From a virus, in the IMG/VR virus record IMGVR_UViG_3300045988_085122, positions 1-37,439 of that record: a stretch of 37,439 nt of DNA, one strand, 5' to 3'. The notes beneath the pieces were generated by a model. It had not been told where the DNA came from. It made no database searches and saw only the letters and a program-made list of their open reading frames with translations. The position numbers and the translations under genes are program-made. Every line of letters begins with the position of its first letter. Position 1 is the first letter of the stretch. Positions 9,067 to 36,050 of the stretch are shown here, piece by piece.

Positions 9067-10221
9067 ATGACTAAAATCAAAAAATACATTAAAAAAGACG
9101 GTTCTAAGGCTTACATGTTTAACTTGTATCTAGGAACTGACCCAGTAACCGGAAAACAGCGCCGAACAACAAGGCGTGGATTTAGGACAATAGCAGAGGC
9201 AAAGACTGCCCTATCACGTTTAGAGTTAGAGGTTATGGAAAACGGACTACCTACAAGCAAGCGTAAAATTATGACCTTCGAGGAGGTTTATAAAATGTGG
9301 TTTGAGCAATACAAAACGACCGTTAAGGAAAGTACTGCATACACTCAAAACAATATTATAAACGTTCAAATACTCCCCTATTTTGGAGCTTTAAGAGTAG
9401 ATAAGGTAGATACTGCATTTTGTCAAAAACAAGTTAATCGAATGTTCAAAACTTCCAAAAACTATAATAATATTATCAACTTAACACGCCGGATTTTTGA
9501 TTATGCCAAAGTGATGAAACAAATTAAAGTTAATCCTATGAACGACGTTATAATTTCGAAGAAACGAAAGACTTTAGATGATACTGATAAGCAAGTGAAT
9601 TTTTACACTAAAGAACAATTAAGAACATTCCTAGAAACATTAAAGAAACATTCTACATATCAAATGTATGCAGTATTTAGAGTTCTTACTTTCACTGGTA
9701 TCCGCAAAGGTGAGTTAGCTGCATTAAAATGGTCTGACGTGGATTTTAACAATGGAACCATTACGATAGATAAAACTGTTGCGATTGATAGTAACGGAGG
9801 CTTGCATATACAAACGCCTAAGACACGTAAAAGCATACGTACTATATCAGTTGACGATACCACTTTAAACGCTCTTAGAACGTGGAAAAACGAACTCAGA
9901 AAAGAATTATTTAAACAAGGTAAAAACATAGATAAAGGCGACGGATTCATCTTTCATAGAAATAACGGAAATTTCATAAACAAATACATTGACCAGTTTC
10001 TTCCGTCTTTTTTGAGAAAATACGATCTTCCACCAATCAAACCGCATGGATTCAGACACACTCATGCATCGTTATTATTTGAGAGTGGAGCAAGCATTAA
10101 AGAGGTTCAAGATAGACTTGGCCATGAAAACATAAAAACAACCATGGATATCTATACTCATGTCACACAATCAGCTAGAGAGAAAACGGCAGAAAAATTT
10201 GCTAAATATATTGATTTTTAA
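9067..10221 (+). CDS. int: tyrosine site-specific integrase
   Basis: 384 aa. C-terminal HGFRHTHASLLFESGASIKEVQDRLGHENIKTTMDIYTHV carries the R...HxxR...Y catalytic signature. RBS GGAGG. Confidence 0.95.
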   Translation: MTKIKKYIKKDGSKAYMFNLYLGTDPVTGKQRRTTRRGFRTIAEAKTALSRLELEVMENGLPTSKRKIMTFEEVYKMWFEQYKTTVKESTAYTQNNIINVQILPYFGALRVDKVDTAFCQKQVNRMFKTSKNYNNIINLTRRIFDYAKVMKQIKVNPMNDVIISKKRKTLDDTDKQVNFYTKEQLRTFLETLKKHSTYQMYAVFRVLTFTGIRKGELAALKWSDVDFNNGTITIDKTVAIDSNGGLHIQTPKTRKSIRTISVDDTTLNALRTWKNELRKELFKQGKNIDKGDGFIFHRNNGNFINKYIDQFLPSFLRKYDLPPIKPHGFRHTHASLLFESGASIKEVQDRLGHENIKTTMDIYTHVTQSAREKTAEKFAKYIDF

Positions 10222-10585: not shown

Positions 10586-10616
10586 AAACCCGTCGATTTC
10601 GACGGGTTATATAATT
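10586..10616. terminator. inverted copy of the 31-bp hairpin element (terminator for the minus-strand membrane-protein gene)
   Basis: aaacccgtcgatttcgacgggttatataatt is the reverse complement of 8991-9021. Confidence 0.6.
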
Positions 10617-11295
10617 ACTTCAAGCCAGACTGTGCTTTAGAAGTCAAGCTATCATTTGTAAATGATAATGTGATCGTGCCGCCTTTAGTGCCAGTTATCC
10701 ATGTCGCGCTAACAGTTTTCTCGCCACCGATAATCATTTCACTTAAGCCATCAGGTTCACCATACTTACTTACAACATCATCATACGAAGAACCATCTGC
10801 AAGGCTGTTATAAGCGTCTAGATCAAATTTAGGGGTACGTGAGAACTTGAAACCTGTTATGCCTTTAGAAACAGCCTGATCACCATTAAATTCAACAGTG
10901 ATGGACACACCACCTTTGCTCCAAATATAATTTTTAATTTGCACGCCTTGTACGTCTTGTGTTGACGTTGAAGAAGGCTTACCTAAAGCTTTTTCAACAT
11001 CACTAAGGGCTGTTCCGCCATCACCATGGCTCATCAAATCACCAACAGCAATATTATCAAACGCCTTTCTAAATTCAGTATTTTGAGTGATAACCTTATT
11101 GTTTGAACTTGATTTACTCTCTGAAGCTGAAGATGTATCTGGATCAGATCCACCACCTATAGTTCCTGCAATAACTATAATAGCTAAAATAGCTAAAACC
11201 CAAAACCACACTCTTTTGTAAAGAGGCTTCTTTACAACATAAACATTTCCGTTTTCTTCTTTAATTTTTTTTGGCATAAATATCATCCTCTTCAT
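10615..11295 (-). CDS. membrane-anchored protein (N-terminal TM, Ser/Thr-rich linker, extracellular domain); lysogenic-conversion or superinfection-exclusion candidate
   Basis: 226 aa. One TM segment WFWVLAILAIIVIAGTIGG, then SSASESKSSSNNK, then a soluble domain. The likely start is the second ATG at 11277 (RBS AAGAGGATGA). Located between lysis genes and attP, where morons cluster. Confidence 0.5.
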   Translation of the reverse strand: MKRMIFMPKKIKEENGNVYVVKKPLYKRVWFWVLAILAIIVIAGTIGGGSDPDTSSASESKSSSNNKVITQNTEFRKAFDNIAVGDLMSHGDGGTALSDVEKALGKPSSTSTQDVQGVQIKNYIWSKGGVSITVEFNGDQAVSKGITGFKFSRTPKFDLDAYNSLADGSSYDDVVSKYGEPDGLSEMIIGGEKTVSATWITGTKGGTITLSFTNDSLTSKAQSGLK

Positions 11296-11348: not shown

Positions 11349-11753
11349 TTAAATAATTTTATTGTCTTTTAGCAAATCATTGATTGCTGCTAAAGTATAA
11401 TGCTTTATCTCTCCGTCTTTAAACTCAGCTATCGCCCATGTTCCTTCGACTCTTAAAATTTCGCCGATACCTTGACGTGTTTTTACATGCTTTCCAATAT
11501 ACTTGTGCAATTCTTTATTTTGACGTGCCATCTCCTCTTTGTGCTCACGTTCTCTTCTTTCTGCGTCTAACTTGTTTCTATCAACAAAATTCTTTATGGT
11601 ATATCCATCTTTCTCAAGTTCCAATATGCTACCGTGTGGAATTCTTTCAAAATCGTTATCCAAAACGTATGAACCATTACTAATATAAGCCCATCCTGTT
11701 TCGCCTACTTCTGCATCTCTTACTTTAATGTATTCTGTTTCTTCTAATTTCAT
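11349..11753 (-). CDS. hypothetical protein (moron island gene 1)
   Basis: 134 aa; two small beta-rich segments joined by a charged helix (AERREREHKEEMARQNKELHK). It has its own sigma70-like promoter copy upstream. Confidence 0.5.
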   Translation of the reverse strand: MKLEETEYIKVRDAEVGETGWAYISNGSYVLDNDFERIPHGSILELEKDGYTIKNFVDRNKLDAERREREHKEEMARQNKELHKYIGKHVKTRQGIGEILRVEGTWAIAEFKDGEIKHYTLAAINDLLKDNKII

Positions 11754-11760
11754 TGTTATT

Positions 11761-11830
11761 TCCTCCTAGTTTTGTATATCTTCTTTACATTTATTATTAT
11801 ATCTCATTTGAGCTATATTGTAAATATTTC
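11761..11830 (-). promoter_or_regulatory. promoter/leader copy A (about 45 bp, near-identical to 12441-12500)
   Basis: Reverse strand reads TTTACA-16/17nt-TATAAT, then a leader, then GGAGG and ATG of the 134-aa gene. The shared core is tatatcttcyttacatttattattatatctcatttgagctata. Confidence 0.6.
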
Positions 11831-11832
11831 TT

Positions 11833-12012
11833 TCAATTATTTTTAAAATACTCATCTAATTTTTTGATAATTTTAATTGTAAGATTATCAAAATTTCGCT
11901 TACCTCTTCTTAAACCATAAATGGTTGACGTACTAACCCCAGTTTTTTTCTGAATATCGTAAGCACTGTAATTACTATCCATTACTTTATTTTTTATTTC
12001 ATCAATATCCAT
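11833..12012 (-). CDS. small HTH DNA-binding protein (59 aa)
   Basis: MDIDEIKNKVMDSNYSAYDIQKKTGVSTSTIYGLRRGKRNFDNLTIKIIKKLDEYFKNN; the segment SAYDIQKKTGVSTSTIYGL is HTH-like. RBS GGAGG. Below the ORF-track size cut-off. Confidence 0.5.
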   Translation of the reverse strand: MDIDEIKNKVMDSNYSAYDIQKKTGVSTSTIYGLRRGKRNFDNLTIKIIKKLDEYFKNN

Positions 12013-12030
12013 TGAATAACCTCCTAAATT

Positions 12031-12429
12031 TTAGAAACCTTTAACAACTGACTTTGGAGCCCACATTGTGATATTTCCGAAATCAGTTTCAAAGCATAAT
12101 AACAATGCTTTTTCTGTTTCACGTTCTACTCCAATGTTATAAGCTAATTGAGCGCCTTGTAATTCTGCTTGGTCAAGGTTCTTTTTCATTAACCAAACTG
12201 GAACACCTTGACGACCCATCCAGAAAAATTCAGGCCCGTTATATTCTTTATGTGTCAATTCGTATACAACGCCTTTAAATGCACTGTCTGACATTCTTTT
12301 GCGTCCAGCTTTAGCCATAGCCCAAATTTTCTTTAAAGCTAATTTTAAAGCTACCATATAATTTCCGACAGCTTTAACGATTTTCTTTGCAATTTTATGT
12401 GCTTGTTTCATGATTTGTTTCTTGCTCAT
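12031..12429 (-). CDS. hypothetical protein (moron island gene 2), with N-terminal Lys-rich amphipathic helix
   Basis: The start is likely MSKKQIMKQAHKIAKKIVKAV (RBS AAGGAGTGA). The longer track ORF (to 12483) reads through the promoter repeat and is rejected. Confidence 0.5.
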   Translation of the reverse strand: MSKKQIMKQAHKIAKKIVKAVGNYMVALKLALKKIWAMAKAGRKRMSDSAFKGVVYELTHKEYNGPEFFWMGRQGVPVWLMKKNLDQAELQGAQLAYNIGVERETEKALLLCFETDFGNITMWAPKSVVKGF

Positions 12430-12440
12430 TTCAATCACTC

Positions 12441-12500
12441 CTTTAGTTTTTATATCTTCCTTACATTTATTATTATATCTCATTTGAGCTATAATGCAAT
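12441..12500 (-). promoter_or_regulatory. promoter/leader copy B (TTGCAT-16nt-TATAAT)
   Basis: Reverse strand reads TTGCATtatagctcaaatgagaTATAATaataaatgtaaggaagatataaaaactaaAGGAGtgattgaaATG. Confidence 0.6.
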
Positions 12501-12528
12501 AGTTTTTTTATAAAAAAGTGCAAAAAAA

Positions 12529-12553
12529 TAAGATCCTACAATTTAGTAGGATC
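12529..12553 (-). terminator. hairpin agatcctac-aattta-gtaggatct flanked by A/T runs (bidirectional terminator)
   Basis: Perfect 9-bp stem; the reverse strand has a T-run after the hairpin. Confidence 0.55.
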
Positions 12554-12643
12554 TGTTTAGTCAGTGCACCAACACTGTAGCACCTGCAACTATATTATAT
12601 CAGTATAAGCTGTTGTTATCAATTTTAAAAGCATAAAAAAATA

Positions 12644-12667
12644 AGCCTACCTTTCAAGGTAGGCTTA
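12644..12667 (-). terminator. Rho-independent terminator after the endolysin gene
   Basis: aagcctacc-tttcaa-ggtaggctt, with TTTTTTT on the minus strand. Confidence 0.7.
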
Positions 12668-12672
12668 AAACA

Positions 12673-13602
12673 TTATTCAAAATTGCCCCAACTATTTACA
12701 CGCTTACCATTTACACTTACGCCAGTTGGCAAGTAGCCATATTGTCCATTCCCTCTTGGTTGTCTAATCCATACGTAAGCACCGGAATGACAGAAAGCAT
12801 CGTATTTAACAACTGAGCCTTTAGGCAAAACTCCAATCTTAGATGAATTAGTTGTAGCGCCCCAACGTAACACAATGCCTTCATCAACAGTAATAGTGAA
12901 CTTGCCATCTTCCTTGTACCATTTTACGCCAAGATCATCAGTCCATGAGTCATACTTAATGTTATTTTGGCTAGGTGCTGGAGCTGGTTTAGGTGCTTCA
13001 GTTTGTGGCTTTGATCCAGCCTTAGCAAACTTATCCCAAGCGTCCACATCCAGATACCAAACAGATCTATCCATATCTCCGCCTGTGTATTGCCAACCAG
13101 CAATTGAAGCAAAAGCGCCACTAGACACGTTCATATCTGGTACTGTCCAGGAGTTCCAGTTCATAGATGCATATTTGGCTACCCAAACAGCACAATCCTT
13201 TGCACAGTTAGCTACTTGGTTTAAAGCTGATTCCTGTACATAAATAACGCACCATACTCCGGTCAAACGGTGTACTTCGTCTACAAATTGGCGAACCCAA
13301 TTAGAATCACCCCACGCTGAATTTTGATAGCCTTCCCAGTCAACAATCAGCATACCTTGACCAACATAATTTTTGATGTTAGTAATAAAATACTGTGCTT
13401 CTGATACTGGATTACCACCGCCGGCATAATGATACAGACCGCGCTTTTTACCAAGTTCTCCGGCTAGATCCCATTGGTAGTTACATTTAGGATTAACGTA
13501 TCCTGTGCCTTGAGTAGCCTTCACAATTACTCCTTGAGCGTGTGGATCACGAATAATACTATCATCTGACCCTGAATAAACGTCTACTGTATACATAACC
13601 AT
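12673..13602 (-). CDS. lys: endolysin: GH25 muramidase with C-terminal SH3b cell-wall-binding domain
   Basis: 309 aa. N-terminal GH25 features (GVIVKATQGTGYVNP...DWEGY...) and a C-terminal SH3_5-like region (KYDSWTDDLGVKWYKEDGKFTI...). Confidence 0.9.
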   Translation of the reverse strand: MVMYTVDVYSGSDDSIIRDPHAQGVIVKATQGTGYVNPKCNYQWDLAGELGKKRGLYHYAGGGNPVSEAQYFITNIKNYVGQGMLIVDWEGYQNSAWGDSNWVRQFVDEVHRLTGVWCVIYVQESALNQVANCAKDCAVWVAKYASMNWNSWTVPDMNVSSGAFASIAGWQYTGGDMDRSVWYLDVDAWDKFAKAGSKPQTEAPKPAPAPSQNNIKYDSWTDDLGVKWYKEDGKFTITVDEGIVLRWGATTNSSKIGVLPKGSVVKYDAFCHSGAYVWIRQPRGNGQYGYLPTGVSVNGKRVNSWGNFE

Positions 13603-31479: not shown

Positions 31480-31842
31480 ACCACGGATGGCACCTAAGCC
31501 ACCAATAGAACCAGTATAAGCTAGAACGACTTTAACGCCAAATAAAGTGAAATTACCATGCTTGTCAAACTTGAATTCTATTCCATACTTGTTGCGCAAT
31601 GGATTAAGTATATTCTGTTCGATCGTCTTAGATGATACACCAGCAAGGATATATTGTGGCTCTCTGAATTTAACTGCATCCGCTCGTTTTCTAACTGCTC
31701 GTAATTCCATTAGAAACAAGTCATTGTCAATTACAGTCTTCCCAGAACGCTTAGCACCATAGTTAATCATCAATCGAAAGCCTTGCTTGTACTTCTTCAA
31801 AACTTCGATTTGGCGTTCGCTATACATCTGTCTTAGGCCCAT
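31480..31842 (-). CDS. terL: terminase large subunit, exon 1 (ATPase N-terminus, Walker A GAKRSGKT)
   Basis: MGLRQMYSERQIEVLKK...INYGAKRSGKT...VVLAYTGSIGGLGAIRG, then an intron-encoded stop; the N-terminal 121 aa alone cannot be a functional TerL. Confidence 0.85.
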
Positions 31843-32314
31843 CCTCTTTCACTTCCTTTTCAGCCAATGAGTCTAATTTGTCTAGATATTCGTTTAGTAA
31901 CTCTACGCCACTCGAGCCACTTTCTTTGAGCATCTGAGCTTTGAACTCTGCAATATTTGCTTCTGCGTTCGTCTTACGTGATCTAGCTTTAGCAAGCTTG
32001 AGTTCATCTGGTGATAACTGACTATCGTTGTATTTATCACGCCAGTTGTTCTTTAACCAAAAAATCATAGCGGTTGTATTACCGTTGATAGCCTTTTGAA
32101 ACAACTCTCGTTCAACAATGAAGTTGGCTGTTTCGCGTCCCACTTTTAGAGATTGCCTTATCTGCTTGTATTTTTGCTTCCAATGGTTGAGAGTGTGGAC
32201 ACTTATGCTCATATTATGAGCAATTTGTTCATCAGTTAAACCGTTTCTTTTCCATCCCTGGAGCAAAACTAAATTATCATCCTCTAGCCACTTTTGATAC
32301 AATCCTTTAGCCAC
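31820..32314 (-). CDS. terS: terminase small subunit
   Basis: 164 aa; N-terminal HTH-like region (LTDEQIAHNMSISVHTLNHWKQ) and a charged C-terminus. GTG start with RBS AAAGGTGGTGA; overlaps the terL start. Confidence 0.8.
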   Translation of the reverse strand: MAKGLYQKWLEDDNLVLLQGWKRNGLTDEQIAHNMSISVHTLNHWKQKYKQIRQSLKVGRETANFIVERELFQKAINGNTTAMIFWLKNNWRDKYNDSQLSPDELKLAKARSRKTNAEANIAEFKAQMLKESGSSGVELLNEYLDKLDSLAEKEVKEDGPKTDV

Positions 32315-32345
32315 GATCTAATTCACCACCTTTCAATCACAAGTC

Positions 32346-32377
32346 TTAACCTAATTGATTTAACGTCCTTCTGAAAC
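32346..32377 (-). promoter_or_regulatory. copy C of the conserved element AATTGrTTTAACrTyCTTCTGAAACm, upstream of terS and overlapping the Dam stop
   Basis: ctaattgatttaacgtccttctgaaaccatg matches 36021-36050 (caattggtttaacattcttctgaaacatca) at about 26 of 30 positions, with further similarity extending toward terS. Confidence 0.6.
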
Positions 32378-35990: not shown

Positions 35991-36050
35991 TTAAGGTCAA
36001 AATTTAACATTCTTCTGAAGCAATTGGTTTAACATTCTTCTGAAACATCA
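35991..36050 (-). repeat. tandem copies A and B of the conserved element (tttaacattcttctgaa twice, 24-bp period)
   Basis: ttaaggtcaaaatttaacattcttctgaagcaattggtttaacattcttctgaaacatca; the flanks match copy C at 32346-32377. Confidence 0.7.

What the first reader, a model, noticed from the sequence alone, without database searches (positions are those of the whole stretch)
11349..12500. Accessory island between lysis genes and attP: two unknown proteins, each under a duplicated promoter/leader, bracketing a 59-aa HTH protein
A ~45-bp element (tatatcttcyttacatttattattatatctcatttgagctata) occurs twice, at 11761-11830 and 12441-12500. Each copy supplies a near-consensus sigma70 promoter (TTGCAT or TTTACA, 16-17 nt spacer, TATAAT) and a leader for a minus-strand gene: a 134-aa protein and a 132-aa protein with a Lys-rich amphipathic N-terminus. 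A small HTH gene with its own RBS sits between them. The position (between the endolysin and attP) and the autonomous strong promoters are typical of lysogen-expressed morons, a known hotspot for prophage-encoded defence, superinfection-exclusion or toxin-like genes. None of the three proteins shows a motif I can assign. This is the best candidate in the window for an undescribed system, possibly together with the adjacent membrane protein at 10615-11295.
Basis: partly seen in the sequence, partly recalled or inferred. Interest (0 to 1): 0.7.

Follow-up and report, generated by a model that had tools for sequence, protein, structure and literature searches.

The report
Aca11-controlled candidate anti-CRISPR locus
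The duplicated promoter, small HTH gene and two unknown genes behind the lysis genes of this Ligilactobacillus salivarius phage look like an "acr-aca" anti-defence operon, a known kind of locus, and its two unknown proteins are untested anti-CRISPR candidates.

Summary
A 63-nt element occurs twice (11771-11833 and 12447-12509, 87% identical), and its 21-nt core occurs nowhere else in the window. Each copy carries a promoter for a minus-strand gene.

The interpretation needs changing. The 59-aa HTH protein is a homologue of Aca11 and of the N-terminal HTH of AcrIIA15. Both are autorepressors of anti-CRISPR (acr) operons. Each promoter copy holds a 24-bp inverted repeat between -35 and -10. It has the geometry and the CAAATG centre of the operator that Streptococcus Aca11 binds in two twin promoters.

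So the layout is P-IR, gene A, aca, P-IR, gene B: an acr-aca11-type operon pair. I do not read it as a defence system.

- Protein A (132 aa, phrog_12732) resembles Orf1 and Orf10 of Streptococcus phage acr loci. Orf10 did not inhibit three Cas9 orthologues; Orf1 was toxic in E. coli, so its test was indeterminate.
- Protein B (134 aa) belongs to a rare orphan family. On other mobile elements it is fused to an Aca-like HTH.
- Related phages carry solitary CRISPR-repeat RNA genes directly upstream of A.

Neither A nor B matches a validated anti-CRISPR protein, so their function is inferred. Verdict: a new member of a known kind, of moderate interest.

The parts
12430..12509 (-). P1: upstream copy of the duplicated promoter, operator and leader. 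-35 TTGCAT at 12499-12494. 24-bp inverted repeat ATTATAGCTCA-AA-TGAGATATAAT at 12495-12472, with arms matching at 10 of 11 positions. -10 TATAAT at 12477-12472. A-rich leader and ribosome-binding site AAGGAG.
12031..12429 (-). Gene A, 132 aa. It has a basic three-helix N-domain and a small beta C-domain. It is a member of phrog_12732 and an untested acr or anti-defence candidate. It is the first gene after the endolysin terminator in all the Lactobacillaceae phage loci sampled.
11833..12012 (-). aca gene: a 59-aa Aca11-family HTH protein and predicted dimeric autorepressor of P1 and P2. It starts 19 nt after gene A, with its own ribosome-binding site.
11754..11833 (-). P2: downstream copy of the promoter, operator and leader. 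-35 TTTACA at 11824-11819. 24-bp inverted repeat AATATAGCTCA-AA-TGAGATATAAT at 11819-11796, with arms matching at 9 of 11 positions. -10 TATAAT at 11801-11796. Ribosome-binding site AGGAGG.
11349..11753 (-). Gene B, 134 aa, acidic. It has two small SH3/Tudor-like beta-barrels joined by a long charged helix. The family is a rare orphan, and in some mobile elements it is fused to an Aca-like HTH. It is the stronger acr candidate of the two.
10615..11295 (-). Variable cargo gene downstream of B: a membrane-anchored DUF3862/BLIP-like protein. Relatives start it at the MPKK codon (11277), giving 220 aa. No terminator lies between B and this gene, so it may be read from P2. Relatives replace it with other genes.
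10587..10608 (-). Intrinsic terminator that closes the unit.
12524..12622 (-). Candidate small RNA unit just upstream of P1; whether it belongs to the module is uncertain. Promoter TTGATA-17-TGaTATAAT (12622-12594), then a transcript of about 65 nt with a hairpin, then terminator 12554-12531. Relatives carry solitary CRISPR-repeat RNA genes at the same place.
12642..12667 (-). Terminator of the endolysin / late operon. It insulates the island from late transcription.

Best explanation
The region is an anti-defence locus of the acr-aca type in a temperate Ligilactobacillus salivarius siphophage.

**Proposed mechanism.**
1. Two nearly identical strong promoters, P1 and P2, each carry a 24-bp inverted repeat between -35 and -10.
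2. P1 drives gene A and the 59-aa Aca11-family HTH gene. P2 drives gene B and probably the downstream cargo gene.
3. On DNA entry, both promoters fire at full strength and produce A and B. These are candidate inhibitors of host immunity. Host CRISPR-Cas (types II-A, I-E or III-A) is the most likely target, but another defence system is possible.
4. As the HTH protein accumulates, it dimerises and binds both inverted repeats, occluding RNA polymerase. Both units are throttled to a low level, which then persists in the lysogen.

**Shown here.**
- The duplication exists.
- The HTH protein is homologous to Aca11 and to the AcrIIA15 N-terminal domain.
- The operator has the same geometry and the promoters are collinear with validated Aca11 targets.
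- A is homologous to residents of Streptococcus acr loci.
- HTH-B fusion proteins exist.
- Related phages carry solitary CRISPR-repeat elements next to the module.

**Inferred.**
- DNA binding and repression by this particular HTH protein.
- The timing of expression.
- Any inhibitory activity of A or B.
For: **1. The HTH protein is an Aca11 relative.**
- A profile of five orthologues searched against PDB sequences gave AcrIIA15 N-terminal domain (8jfr_B) at E=4.3e-11, Aca11 (9lx2_A) at E=1.2e-9, and AcrIIA1 at E=0.04.
- The window protein alone gave AcrIIA15 at E=1e-5 and Aca11 at E=2.7e-4.
- Aca11 is the only protein of a 33-protein acr/aca panel that hits any six-frame ORF of the window besides Orf10 hitting A and a marginal Orf16 match to ORF 713-1153 (E=0.0016).
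- The Aca11 DNA-contact residues Y18, K22, K38 and R39 and the dimer residue L44 (PMC12658196) are conserved. Q28 is T and S32 is Y (alignments).

**2. The operator matches.**
- The published Aca11 operator is two 11-bp half-sites separated by 2 nt, lying between -35 and -10 of two promoters that 'share extensive sequence identity' (AGTATATAACAAATGTTATATACT; PMC12658196 section 12, PMC12282945 section 20).
- The window has ATTATAGCTCAAATGAGATATAAT in P1 and AATATAGCTCAAATGAGATATAAT in P2. The geometry, position and CAAATG centre are the same. The arms match at 10/11 and 9/11 positions.
- The differences from the Streptococcus operator are concentrated at inner half-site positions.
- The promoters align collinearly with the published probes, including the leader TGTAAG. 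P2 versus PacrIIA3 is 40/64 identical.

**3. Operator and HTH class co-vary.** Loci with the 68-72-aa HTH class carry a different inverted repeat, TATTTAC-N6-GTAAATA. In L012 and L023 it appears before both transcription units.

**4. Protein A has relatives in acr loci.** Its C-domain matches Orf10 (hhalign probability 94.8%, E=5e-8; profile E=9.5e-10). Its N-hairpin matches Orf1 (profile E=6.2e-5). Both were acr candidates next to AcrIIA6, AcrIIA25 or Aca12 in Streptococcus phages (PMC8934645, Table S1).

**5. Protein B is linked to the HTH.**
- B directly follows an Aca11-like HTH gene in the three closest locus types.
- P0111, P0126 and P0128 are single proteins with an HTH extension fused to the B N-domain; the Aca-type HTH model matches the extensions of P0126 and P0111, not P0128. 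This mirrors AcrIIA13-15, AcrIIA1 and AcrIIA29. PMC8934645 names such fusion as a confident acr marker.

**6. Neighbouring elements in relatives.**
- Relatives L019-22, L030/L060 and L032 carry promoter + AGGAGGATTA + GTTTCAGAAGATTGTTAAATC between the endolysin gene and A. This matches 19 of 21 positions of the L. salivarius II-A repeat (PMC12502609, Table 6).
- That is a solitary guide-plus-repeat unit, like the viral scaRNAs reported in L. salivarius prophages 'nearby to an Acr or Aca' (bioRxiv 10.64898/2026.06.01.729453).
- In L189, B lies two genes from an AcrVA2-like protein.

**7. Host context.** According to PMC11288051, 32.5% of L. salivarius genomes carry self-targeting spacers, and about a quarter of those spacers hit prophages.
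Against: - The tested relative of A did not work as an Acr. Orf10 did not inhibit SpyCas9, St1Cas9 or St3Cas9. Orf1 was toxic in E. coli, so its test was indeterminate (PMC8934645).
- The cargo transcribed with or after B is heterogeneous: a Sie-like membrane protein here, and an SNF2-PAPS-reductase-ParB cluster elsewhere. It could serve the lysogen rather than the infecting phage.
- A small HTH with a dyad operator is also how many non-Acr accessory operons are controlled.
- In this window the solitary-repeat elements are not next to the module. They lie at 32.3 kb and 36.0 kb.
- In L189, B has no adjacent Aca11-like gene.
- There are no expression data.
Confidence: 0.7

Rival explanations
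1. **Lysogenic-conversion (moron) module.** A, B and the DUF3862 membrane protein are expressed from the prophage. They protect the lysogen by superinfection exclusion, abortive infection or another defence. The HTH is simply their local regulator.
For: - The position next to attR/attP, the flanking terminators and the autonomous promoters fit a moron.
- The neighbouring gene is a DUF3862/BLIP-like membrane protein. Its N-terminal region matches PHROGs labelled Sie-like.
- In relatives, B heads an operon with an SNF2 helicase, a PAPS-reductase/DUF3440 protein and a ParB-domain protein. These show weak similarity to ZorD, DpdE, DndC and BrxP models.
- PMC13551039 reports that Aca proteins can also control defence-related operons.
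Against: - No PADLOC model matches A or B.
- The regulator and its operator are specifically of the Aca11 type.
- Relatives of A sit in validated acr loci.
- B is fused to Aca-type HTH domains, as Acrs are.
- The Sie-like gene is dispensable to the module. It is absent in L020 and L018 and replaced in L019, L027 and L012.
Confidence: 0.15
2. **Split transcription factor.** B is not an inhibitor. It is the sensor or co-regulator domain of the HTH protein, here encoded as a separate polypeptide. Together they switch the variable downstream cargo on or off.
For: - HTH-B fusion proteins exist (P0111, P0126, P0128).
- B is always the first gene of the cargo unit.
Against: - Fusion to an Aca domain is equally typical of genuine Acrs (AcrIIA1, AcrIIA13-15, AcrIIA29, AcrIIA31.1, AcrIIA32; PMC8934645).
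- B occurs with no cargo at all (L018, L020) and without an adjacent HTH gene (L189).
Confidence: 0.1
3. **Toxin-antitoxin-like addiction module.** The HTH is the antitoxin and autorepressor. A or B is the toxin.
For: - The unit has a small HTH autorepressor with a dyad operator.
- Orf1, a relative of the A N-terminal hairpin, was toxic when over-expressed in E. coli (PMC8934645).
- The HTH family shows weak similarity to HipB, PezA and HigA-type HTH proteins, with E values of 0.1-1.
Against: - At 59 aa, the HTH protein has no room for a toxin-neutralising domain.
- Neither A nor B shows a toxin fold or toxin family match.
- Gene A is frameshifted in L010 while the rest of the module is intact.
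- B has its own promoter, which is not the usual antitoxin-toxin coupling.
Confidence: 0.03

Closest known systems
Streptococcus acrIIA25.1-aca11 / acrIIA3 locus (Aca11-regulated twin promoters; PMC12282945, PMC12658196)
   Same: - Gene order: promoter + inverted repeat, small gene, about 60-aa HTH gene, second near-identical promoter + inverted repeat, next small gene(s), all on one strand.
- The HTH proteins are homologous (E=1.2e-9 by profile, 2.7e-4 for the single sequence).
- The operator is 11 + 2 + 11 bp between -35 and -10, with the same CAAATG centre.
- The leader has a similar sequence (TGTAAG...).
   Different: - The cargo proteins are unrelated. A and B replace AcrIIA25.1 and AcrIIA3.
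- The inner half-site bases differ (GCT versus TAA), and the contact residue Q28 is T.
- The host is Ligilactobacillus, not Streptococcus.
- Binding and repression are not demonstrated here.
AcrIIA13-15 (Staphylococcus), AcrIIA1 (Listeria) and AcrIIA29: Acr proteins with an N-terminal autorepressor HTH
   Same: - The window HTH protein is most similar to the AcrIIA15 N-terminal domain (E=4.3e-11 by profile).
- Distant B homologues (P0111, P0126, P0128) have the same 'HTH + effector domain' architecture.
   Different: - In the window, the HTH and B are separate genes with a promoter between them.
- The domains of B show no similarity to the C-terminal inhibitor domains of those Acrs.
Orf1 and Orf10 of Streptococcus thermophilus phage acr loci (Song et al. 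2022, PMC8934645)
   Same: - A combines an Orf1-like basic helical hairpin with an Orf10-like beta C-domain carrying the motif ETxKA...W.PKSV.
- All of them sit directly beside acr or aca genes.
   Different: - Orf10 showed no inhibition of SpyCas9, St1Cas9 or St3Cas9. Orf1 was toxic in E. coli.
- No function is known for either.
- In A, both modules are in one protein.
Viral scaRNA / solitary-repeat RNA anti-CRISPR islands of L. salivarius prophages (bioRxiv 10.64898/2026.06.01.729453)
   Same: - Relatives of this phage carry guide + II-A-repeat-like units immediately upstream of gene A.
- The window itself has three repeat-like units elsewhere.
   Different: - In the window, the slot upstream of A holds an unrelated hairpin RNA candidate.
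- I could not see which neighbouring proteins that study scored as Acr or Aca, because Table S6 is truncated in the held copy.

Membership tests
Aca11 family (anti-CRISPR-associated HTH autorepressors) | Sequence homology to Aca11 or to the AcrIIA15 N-terminal domain | tested here: met
   - Profile search: AcrIIA15 N-terminal domain E=4.3e-11, Aca11 E=1.2e-9.
- Window protein alone: 1e-5 and 2.7e-4.
- Aca11 used as query hits only ORF 11833-12012 in the window.
Aca11 family (anti-CRISPR-associated HTH autorepressors) | Conserved DNA-contact and dimerisation residues (Y18, K22, Q28, S32, K38, R39; L44) | tested here: inconclusive
   Y18, K22, K38, R39 and L44 are conserved. Q28 is T and S32 is Y (alignments; residue list from PMC12658196). 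The Q28 change fits a changed operator, but this is not proof.
Aca11 family (anti-CRISPR-associated HTH autorepressors) | Inverted-repeat operator (11+2+11 bp) between -35 and -10 of its own operon and of the downstream operon | tested here: met
   The 24-bp inverted repeat lies at 12495-12472 and 11819-11796, with arms matching at 10/11 and 9/11 positions. Both promoters are collinear with the published EMSA probes.
Aca11 family (anti-CRISPR-associated HTH autorepressors) | Binds the inverted repeat and represses transcription | not testable with these tools
   This needs EMSA and reporter assays.
Aca11 family (anti-CRISPR-associated HTH autorepressors) | Adjacent to at least one validated Acr (the criterion used to name an aca gene) | tested here: not met
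   No ORF of the window matches AcrIIA24-32, AcrIIA4, AcrIIA5 or AcrIIC1. A and B match no solved Acr. Only unvalidated acr-locus residents (Orf1, Orf10) match A.
acr-aca operon (anti-CRISPR locus) | Small genes (<300 aa) directly next to the aca gene, in the same orientation, on a mobile element | tested here: met
   A is 132 aa and lies 19 nt upstream of the HTH gene. B is 134 aa and lies 79 nt downstream. All are on the minus strand of a prophage.
acr-aca operon (anti-CRISPR locus) | Candidate found fused to an Aca domain in some homologues | tested here: met
   Met for B: P0111 (192 aa), P0126 (259 aa) and P0128 (136 aa) carry an HTH extension before the B N-domain; the Aca-type HTH model matches the extensions of P0126 and P0111 only. 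Not seen for A.
acr-aca operon (anti-CRISPR locus) | Inhibition of a CRISPR-Cas system by the cargo proteins | not testable with these tools
   The only related experimental data are negative or indeterminate. Orf10 was inactive against three Cas9 orthologues, and Orf1 was toxic (PMC8934645).
Known anti-CRISPR protein families | Sequence or fold similarity of A or B to a validated Acr | tested here: not met
Known anti-phage defence systems (PADLOC-DB) | Match of A, B or the membrane protein to a defence-system model | tested here: not met
   One search gave no family for A, B or the DUF3862 protein. The only hit was a weak HTH match (mad1, E=0.0012).
Type II toxin-antitoxin modules | Antitoxin with a DNA-binding domain plus a toxin-neutralising domain, co-transcribed with a recognisable toxin | tested here: not met
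   The HTH protein is 59 aa with a single domain. No toxin family or fold was found for A or B.
DUF3862 / BLIP-like prophage membrane proteins (gene 10615-11295) | N-terminal membrane anchor plus a DUF3862 domain | tested here: met
   PF12978 E=1e-54. phrog_6148 E=5.8e-58. The N-terminal region matches Sie-like PHROGs. An exclusion function was not tested.

The most novel reading that the evidence does not exclude
B is the founding member of a new anti-CRISPR or anti-defence family. It has an acidic SH3-like N-domain, a charged helix and a second barrel, and no structural relative among viral or solved proteins. It would inhibit an L. salivarius CRISPR-Cas system (II-A, I-E or III-A).

A is the conserved first gene of post-lysin islands in Lactobacillaceae phages, with domain-level relatives (Orf1, Orf10) in Streptococcus phage acr loci. 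It would be a nucleic-acid-binding counter-defence protein whose target is not Cas9.

The Aca11-type repressor would then coordinate protein inhibitors, RNA decoys and, in relatives, a DNA-modification cluster as one regulon.
Probability: 0.35. Interest if true: 0.65.

Novelty: new member of a known kind. Interest (0 to 1): 0.45.

Why it matters
**Testable candidates.** If A or B inhibits an L. salivarius CRISPR-Cas system, each would be a new Acr family for a probiotic species. According to PMC11288051, about a third of L. salivarius genomes carry self-targeting spacers, and no Acr has been validated for the species. A cell-free test bed for its II-A, I-E and III-A systems already exists (PMC11288051).

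**Reach of the Aca11 design.** The locus extends the Aca11 'one repressor, two twin promoters' design from Streptococcus to Lactobacillaceae. The operator changes at inner half-site positions together with contact residue 28. That gives a natural specificity pair for orthogonal Aca-based switches.

**A widespread unknown.** The A family sits at the same genomic slot in the L. salivarius-type, L. fermentum, L. rhamnosus and L. plantarum phages sampled, and domain-level relatives (Orf1, Orf10) sit in Streptococcus phage acr loci. A relative was inactive against Cas9. A conserved counter-defence function of unknown target is therefore worth finding.

**For annotation.** These three 'hypothetical protein' or 'HTH regulator' genes can be flagged as an acr-aca-type locus, not as defence genes.

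Tried and rejected
**Searches that gave nothing for A or B**
- Pfam, NCBIfam and PADLOC gave nothing for A or B; in PHROGs, B matched nothing and A matched only phrog_12732, a family of unknown function.
- A megablast of the island against the phage collection found no match.
- B had no tblastn match in deposited phages.
- PDB sequence profile searches for A and B found nothing at E<=10.
- A Foldseek search of B against BFVD found nothing at E<=0.001.
- A search of 1.84 billion representative proteins with the B profile found only 34 relatives, all unannotated.

**Scans that were uninformative**
- B-pattern scans found 2 IMG/VR loci and no locus in the species-representative genomes.
- A 16-mer operator scan of genome contigs returned only chance hits. 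That was a poor use of the scan.
- In IMG/VR, only three L. salivarius-type contigs have the operator twice.

**Ideas tested and not supported**
- The small RNA at 12524-12588 might mimic a CRISPR repeat. It has no Rfam match. A 19-mer scan of metagenome contigs found only single copies and no arrays. This is not supported.
- The guide AGGAGGATTA of the relatives' repeat units might match the cas9 upstream region available in L023. It does not, though L023 may be from another species. Inconclusive.
- L006 first looked like a prophage remnant retaining only this island. The junction contains an N, so it may be an assembly join. I dropped the claim.
- The 59-aa HTH protein could be a truncated phrog_1529-type 200-aa protein whose C-terminus was replaced by B. 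B does not match phrog_1529. The short form is conserved intact in many phages. I reject pseudogenisation.
- Toxin-antitoxin and split-regulator readings are kept as low-probability rivals.

**Sources I could not read**
- Supplementary tables that might name the L. salivarius Acr or Aca neighbours are truncated in the held copies: Table S6 of the bioRxiv preprint and Table S5 of PMC11288051.
Full report
**Context.** The window is a temperate siphophage or prophage of Ligilactobacillus salivarius. Proteins identical or nearly identical to those of the island are annotated from L. salivarius genomes and gut viromes. The late genes run on the minus strand and end with a holin pair and a GH25+SH3_5 endolysin (12673-13602). 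A strong terminator follows (12667-12642). The island lies between that terminator and the terminator at 10608-10587. The integrase gene (9067-10221, plus strand) lies beyond it.

A 63-nt direct repeat (11771-11833 and 12447-12509, 87% identical) is the longest repeat in the region.
- Its 21-nt core is identical in both copies. It occurs nowhere else in 37 kb even with three mismatches allowed, and 0 matches are expected by chance.
- On the minus strand each copy reads: -35, 16-17 nt spacer, TATAAT, A-rich leader, ribosome-binding site, ATG.
- P2 (TTTACA-17-TATAAT) scores 11 of 12 consensus positions.
- P1 has a weaker -35 (TTGCAT, 3 of 6) but a perfect -10. Relatives have TTTACA or TTTACG at that position.
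The 132-aa start is the credible one, because the 150-aa frame begins inside the promoter.

**The decisive point is the identity of the 59-aa HTH protein.**
- Pfam gives only a sub-threshold HTH_3 match. PHROGs place it in the N-terminal HTH domain of phrog_1529, a family of unknown function.
- A profile of five orthologues searched against all PDB sequences gave the N-terminal domain of AcrIIA15 (E=4.3e-11) and the anti-CRISPR-associated protein Aca11 (E=1.2e-9), with AcrIIA1 as a weak third.
- The window protein alone reaches E=1e-5 and 2.7e-4.
- Aca11 used as a query finds this ORF and no other in the six-frame translation of the window.
- Residues shown by mutagenesis to matter for Aca11 DNA binding (Y18, K22, K38, R39) and dimerisation (L44) are conserved. 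Q28 is T and S32 is Y (PMC12658196).

**The duplicated element corresponds to the Aca11 operator-promoter.**
- In Streptococcus, aca11 lies downstream of acrIIA25.1 and upstream of a second operon beginning with acrIIA3.
- The two promoters there 'share extensive sequence identity'. Each carries, between -35 and -10, an inverted repeat of two 11-bp half-sites separated by 2 nt (AGTATATAACAAATGTTATATACT). Aca11 binds both and represses both (PMC12658196 section 12; PMC12282945 section 20).
- The window has ATTATAGCTCAAATGAGATATAAT in P1 and AATATAGCTCAAATGAGATATAAT in P2, at the same position. The geometry is the same 11+2+11, the centre is the same CAAATG, and the arms match at 10/11 and 9/11 positions.
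- Aligned with the published EMSA probes, the window promoters are collinear from -35 through the leader (TGTAAG...). P2 is 40/64 identical to PacrIIA3.
- The half-sites differ from the Streptococcus ones mainly at three inner positions (GCT versus TAA). This fits the Q28-to-T change in the recognition region.
- Prophages whose HTH protein belongs to a second class (68-72 aa, about 30% identical) carry a different inverted repeat, TATTTAC-N6-GTAAATA, overlapping -35. In L012 and L023 it appears in front of both transcription units, in arrays with 21-22-bp spacing. So the operator co-varies with the regulator.
- I infer, but cannot show, that the 59-aa protein is a dimeric autorepressor of P1 and P2.

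**Protein A (132 aa).**
- AlphaFold2 (pLDDT 87) predicts a basic three-helix N-domain (net charge about +12.7) and a small beta C-domain.
- It belongs to phrog_12732, a family of unknown function.
- It is the first gene after the endolysin terminator in phages LFP01 (L. fermentum), Lrm1 (L. rhamnosus) and phig1e (L. plantarum), and in 20 IMG/VR contigs.
- In 12 of 25 such loci, an Aca11-like HTH domain follows within one or two genes. It is either a 59-60-aa protein or the N-terminus of a 139-230-aa protein.
- The C-domain is homologous to 'Orf10' (hhalign probability 94.8%, E=5e-8; profile E=9.5e-10). The N-terminal hairpin is homologous to 'Orf1' (profile E=6.2e-5). Orf1 also matches LFP01 gp26 at E=1.8e-13.
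- Orf1 and Orf10 are Streptococcus thermophilus phage genes. They were picked as acr candidates because they sit beside AcrIIA6, AcrIIA25 or Aca12.
- In that study, orf1-17 showed no inhibition of SpyCas9, St1Cas9 or St3Cas9, and Orf1 was toxic in E. coli (PMC8934645).
- So A is a recurrent resident of acr loci, but the only functional data on relatives are negative or indeterminate for Cas9.

**Protein B (134 aa).**
- AlphaFold2 (pLDDT 87) predicts two small SH3/Tudor-like barrels joined by a 25-residue charged helix. The protein is acidic, with an N-domain charge of about -7.
- The family is very small: 44 hits in 5.8 billion cluster representatives, and 34 representatives at E<=1e-3 among 1.84 billion proteins.
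- In the three closest locus types, B directly follows an Aca11-like HTH gene and has its own operator-bearing promoter. The gene before the HTH varies: A, a 112-115-aa protein, or an 80-aa protein.
- Three distant homologues are single polypeptides with an HTH extension fused to the B N-domain; the Aca-type HTH model matches the extensions of P0126 and P0111, not P0128. P0111 lies on a MobL-type mobile element.
- Fusion with an Aca domain is characteristic of AcrIIA1, AcrIIA13-15, AcrIIA29, AcrIIA31.1 and AcrIIA32. [quoted passage not shown]
- B is unrelated to any protein of the AcrIIA24-32 / AcrIIA4 / AcrIIA5 / AcrIIC1 / orf1-17 panel.

**Neighbourhood evidence.**
- The L. salivarius II-A CRISPR repeat is GTTTCAGAAGTATGTTAAATCAATAAGGTTAAGACC (PMC12502609, Table 6).
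- In relatives L019-L022, L030/L060 (two units) and L032, the intergenic region between the endolysin gene and A contains a promoter, the short sequence AGGAGGATTA(A), a 21-nt stretch matching the repeat at 19 of 21 positions, and a terminator.
- This is the anatomy of the 'viral scaRNAs' recently described in L. salivarius prophages and IMG/VR contigs, which were 'all located nearby to an Acr or Aca' (bioRxiv 10.64898/2026.06.01.729453, section 10).
- In the window, that slot holds a different candidate small RNA. It has a near-consensus extended -10 promoter, a transcript of about 65 nt, a folding z-score of -4.9 and no Rfam match. The window does carry three II-A repeat-like units elsewhere.
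- In phage contig L189, a B homologue is two genes from an AcrVA2-like protein (PF26125). The genes there again have twin promoters with the same leader motif.
- The cargo after B is interchangeable: the DUF3862/BLIP-like membrane protein here, a 144-aa membrane protein, three unknown proteins, nothing at all, or an SNF2-PAPS-reductase/DUF3440-ParB cluster that starts 13 nt after B.
- That fits the recent report that Aca proteins co-regulate neighbouring operons encoding helicases, DNA-modification enzymes and other defence- or anti-defence-related functions (PMC13551039).

**Mechanism proposed.** On DNA entry, the unrepressed P1 and P2 fire and produce A, the Aca-like repressor and B, plus the cargo. 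The repressor then dimerises on the two inverted repeats, which overlap the -10. It throttles both units to a low level that persists in the lysogen. A and B are the putative effectors against host immunity.
- Shown: the anatomy, the homologies, the operator geometry, the co-variation and the fusions.
- Inferred: binding, timing and every effector activity.

I put 0.7 on 'Aca11-type-regulated acr-aca-like anti-defence locus'. I put about 0.35 on A or B being a true inhibitor of a CRISPR-Cas system.

**Rivals.**
- *Defence or exclusion moron.* This is supported only by position and by the Sie-like neighbour, which the module can lose. PADLOC finds nothing.
- *Split regulator.* B as the sensor or co-regulator of the HTH protein is compatible with the fusions. 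It does not explain B occurring without cargo or without an adjacent HTH gene.
- *Toxin-antitoxin.* This is unlikely for a 59-aa single-domain HTH protein with no toxin-like partner.

**Novelty and interest.** The architecture is a known kind (an acr-aca11 operon pair), so this is not an undescribed system. What is new:
- its occurrence in Lactobacillaceae phages;
- an operator-regulator specificity variant;
- two uncharacterised cargo families, one of which (B) has no detectable relatives of known structure or function.

That makes it a good, concrete lead for anti-CRISPR or anti-defence discovery in L. salivarius, but not a surprise for specialists. Interest is 0.45.

Noticed in passing
window 32342-32377 (-): There is a solitary copy of the L. 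salivarius type II-A CRISPR repeat: GTTTCAGAAGGACGTTAAATCAATTAGGTTAAGACT, matching 32 of 36 positions. It overlaps the last codons and the stop codon of a 336-aa ORF with a DPPY methyltransferase motif, just upstream of the ORF 31820-32314 (function not checked). Chance expectation is 0. It may be an RNA anti-CRISPR or a viral scaRNA-like element.
   Followed up: partly
window 36001-36046 (-): Two tandem partial II-A repeat-like units (GTTTCAGAAGAATGTTAAACC and GCTTCAGAAGAATGTTAAATT) lie at the 3' end of a 57-aa hydrophobic ORF in the early region. As at 32.3 kb, the repeat supplies the last codons (VSEEC*).
   Followed up: partly
window 12524-12622 (-): A candidate small RNA lies between the endolysin terminator and P1. 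It has promoter TTGATA-17-TGaTATAAT and a transcript of about 65 nt with a 5' hairpin and an intrinsic terminator. The predicted fold is -24.7 kcal/mol with z=-4.9. It has no Rfam match and occurs only as single copies in metagenome contigs.
   Followed up: partly
L019:4060-4240; L030:3615-3900; L032:3775-3900: In related phages, the endolysin-to-A intergenic region carries one or two units of promoter + AGGAGGATTA(A) + a II-A repeat-like 21-mer + terminator. They resemble the viral scaRNAs of bioRxiv 10.64898/2026.06.01.729453.
   Followed up: partly
L012:5431-8885 (also L013-L016, L023-L026, L033, L038, L039): A cluster of an SNF2-type helicase (385 aa), a PAPS-reductase/DUF3440 protein (433 aa; I recall IbrA as similar, not tested) and a ParB_N + NUMOD protein (340 aa) starts 13 nt after the B homologue. 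In other phages it sits downstream of A-led islands. The prophage end abuts host cas genes: cse1, or cas9 in L023.
   Followed up: partly
L189:3001-5013: A phage contig has, after the endolysin gene, a B homologue (127 aa), a 101-aa protein of a recurrent 'KxYNTxTAK' family (also LFP01 gp28, L024 121 aa, L188 98 aa), a 310-aa AcrVA2-like protein (PF26125) and a 73-aa protein. B and the 101-aa gene have twin promoters sharing ACGGG(G)GTGTTATAAT.
   Followed up: partly
L183:4001-4579: P0111 is a 192-aa fusion of an Aca-like HTH domain with a full B-type protein. It is encoded on an element with a MobL relaxase, which suggests a plasmid or ICE, not a phage.
   Followed up: partly
L001 (phage LFP01) 3860-4003 and 5459-5585: LFP01 also has a duplicated promoter, TGGTATTATATAGTTGTA, in front of its A homologue and in front of gp26. 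gp26 is a homologue of Streptococcus phage Orf1 (E=1.8e-13). gp25 has an Aca11-like N-terminal HTH.
   Followed up: partly
promoter leaders of A homologues: window 12455-12464, L001, L002, L003, L189: The motif TGTAA(A/G)G lies about 5-7 nt downstream of the -10 hexamer. It is shared by the post-lysin promoters of L. salivarius, L. fermentum, L. rhamnosus and L. plantarum phages, and by the Streptococcus Aca11-regulated promoters. Its role is unknown; it could be the start-site region or an RNA element.
   Followed up: no
L010:3098-3549: In one metagenomic relative, gene A is split by a frameshift into two 75-aa ORFs. The HTH gene, B and the membrane-protein gene are intact.
   Followed up: no
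L006:3224-3235: In GCA_009863555.1 the island appears directly between murA and mreB with a truncated endolysin. It looks like a prophage remnant, but the junction contains an N and may be an assembly join.
   Followed up: partly
L003 (phage phig1e) 3265-3792: Rorf175, the gene before the A homologue Rorf148, has an N-terminal stretch weakly similar to Aca13 (E about 0.003-0.005 in small local databases). This is only suggestive.
   Followed up: partly
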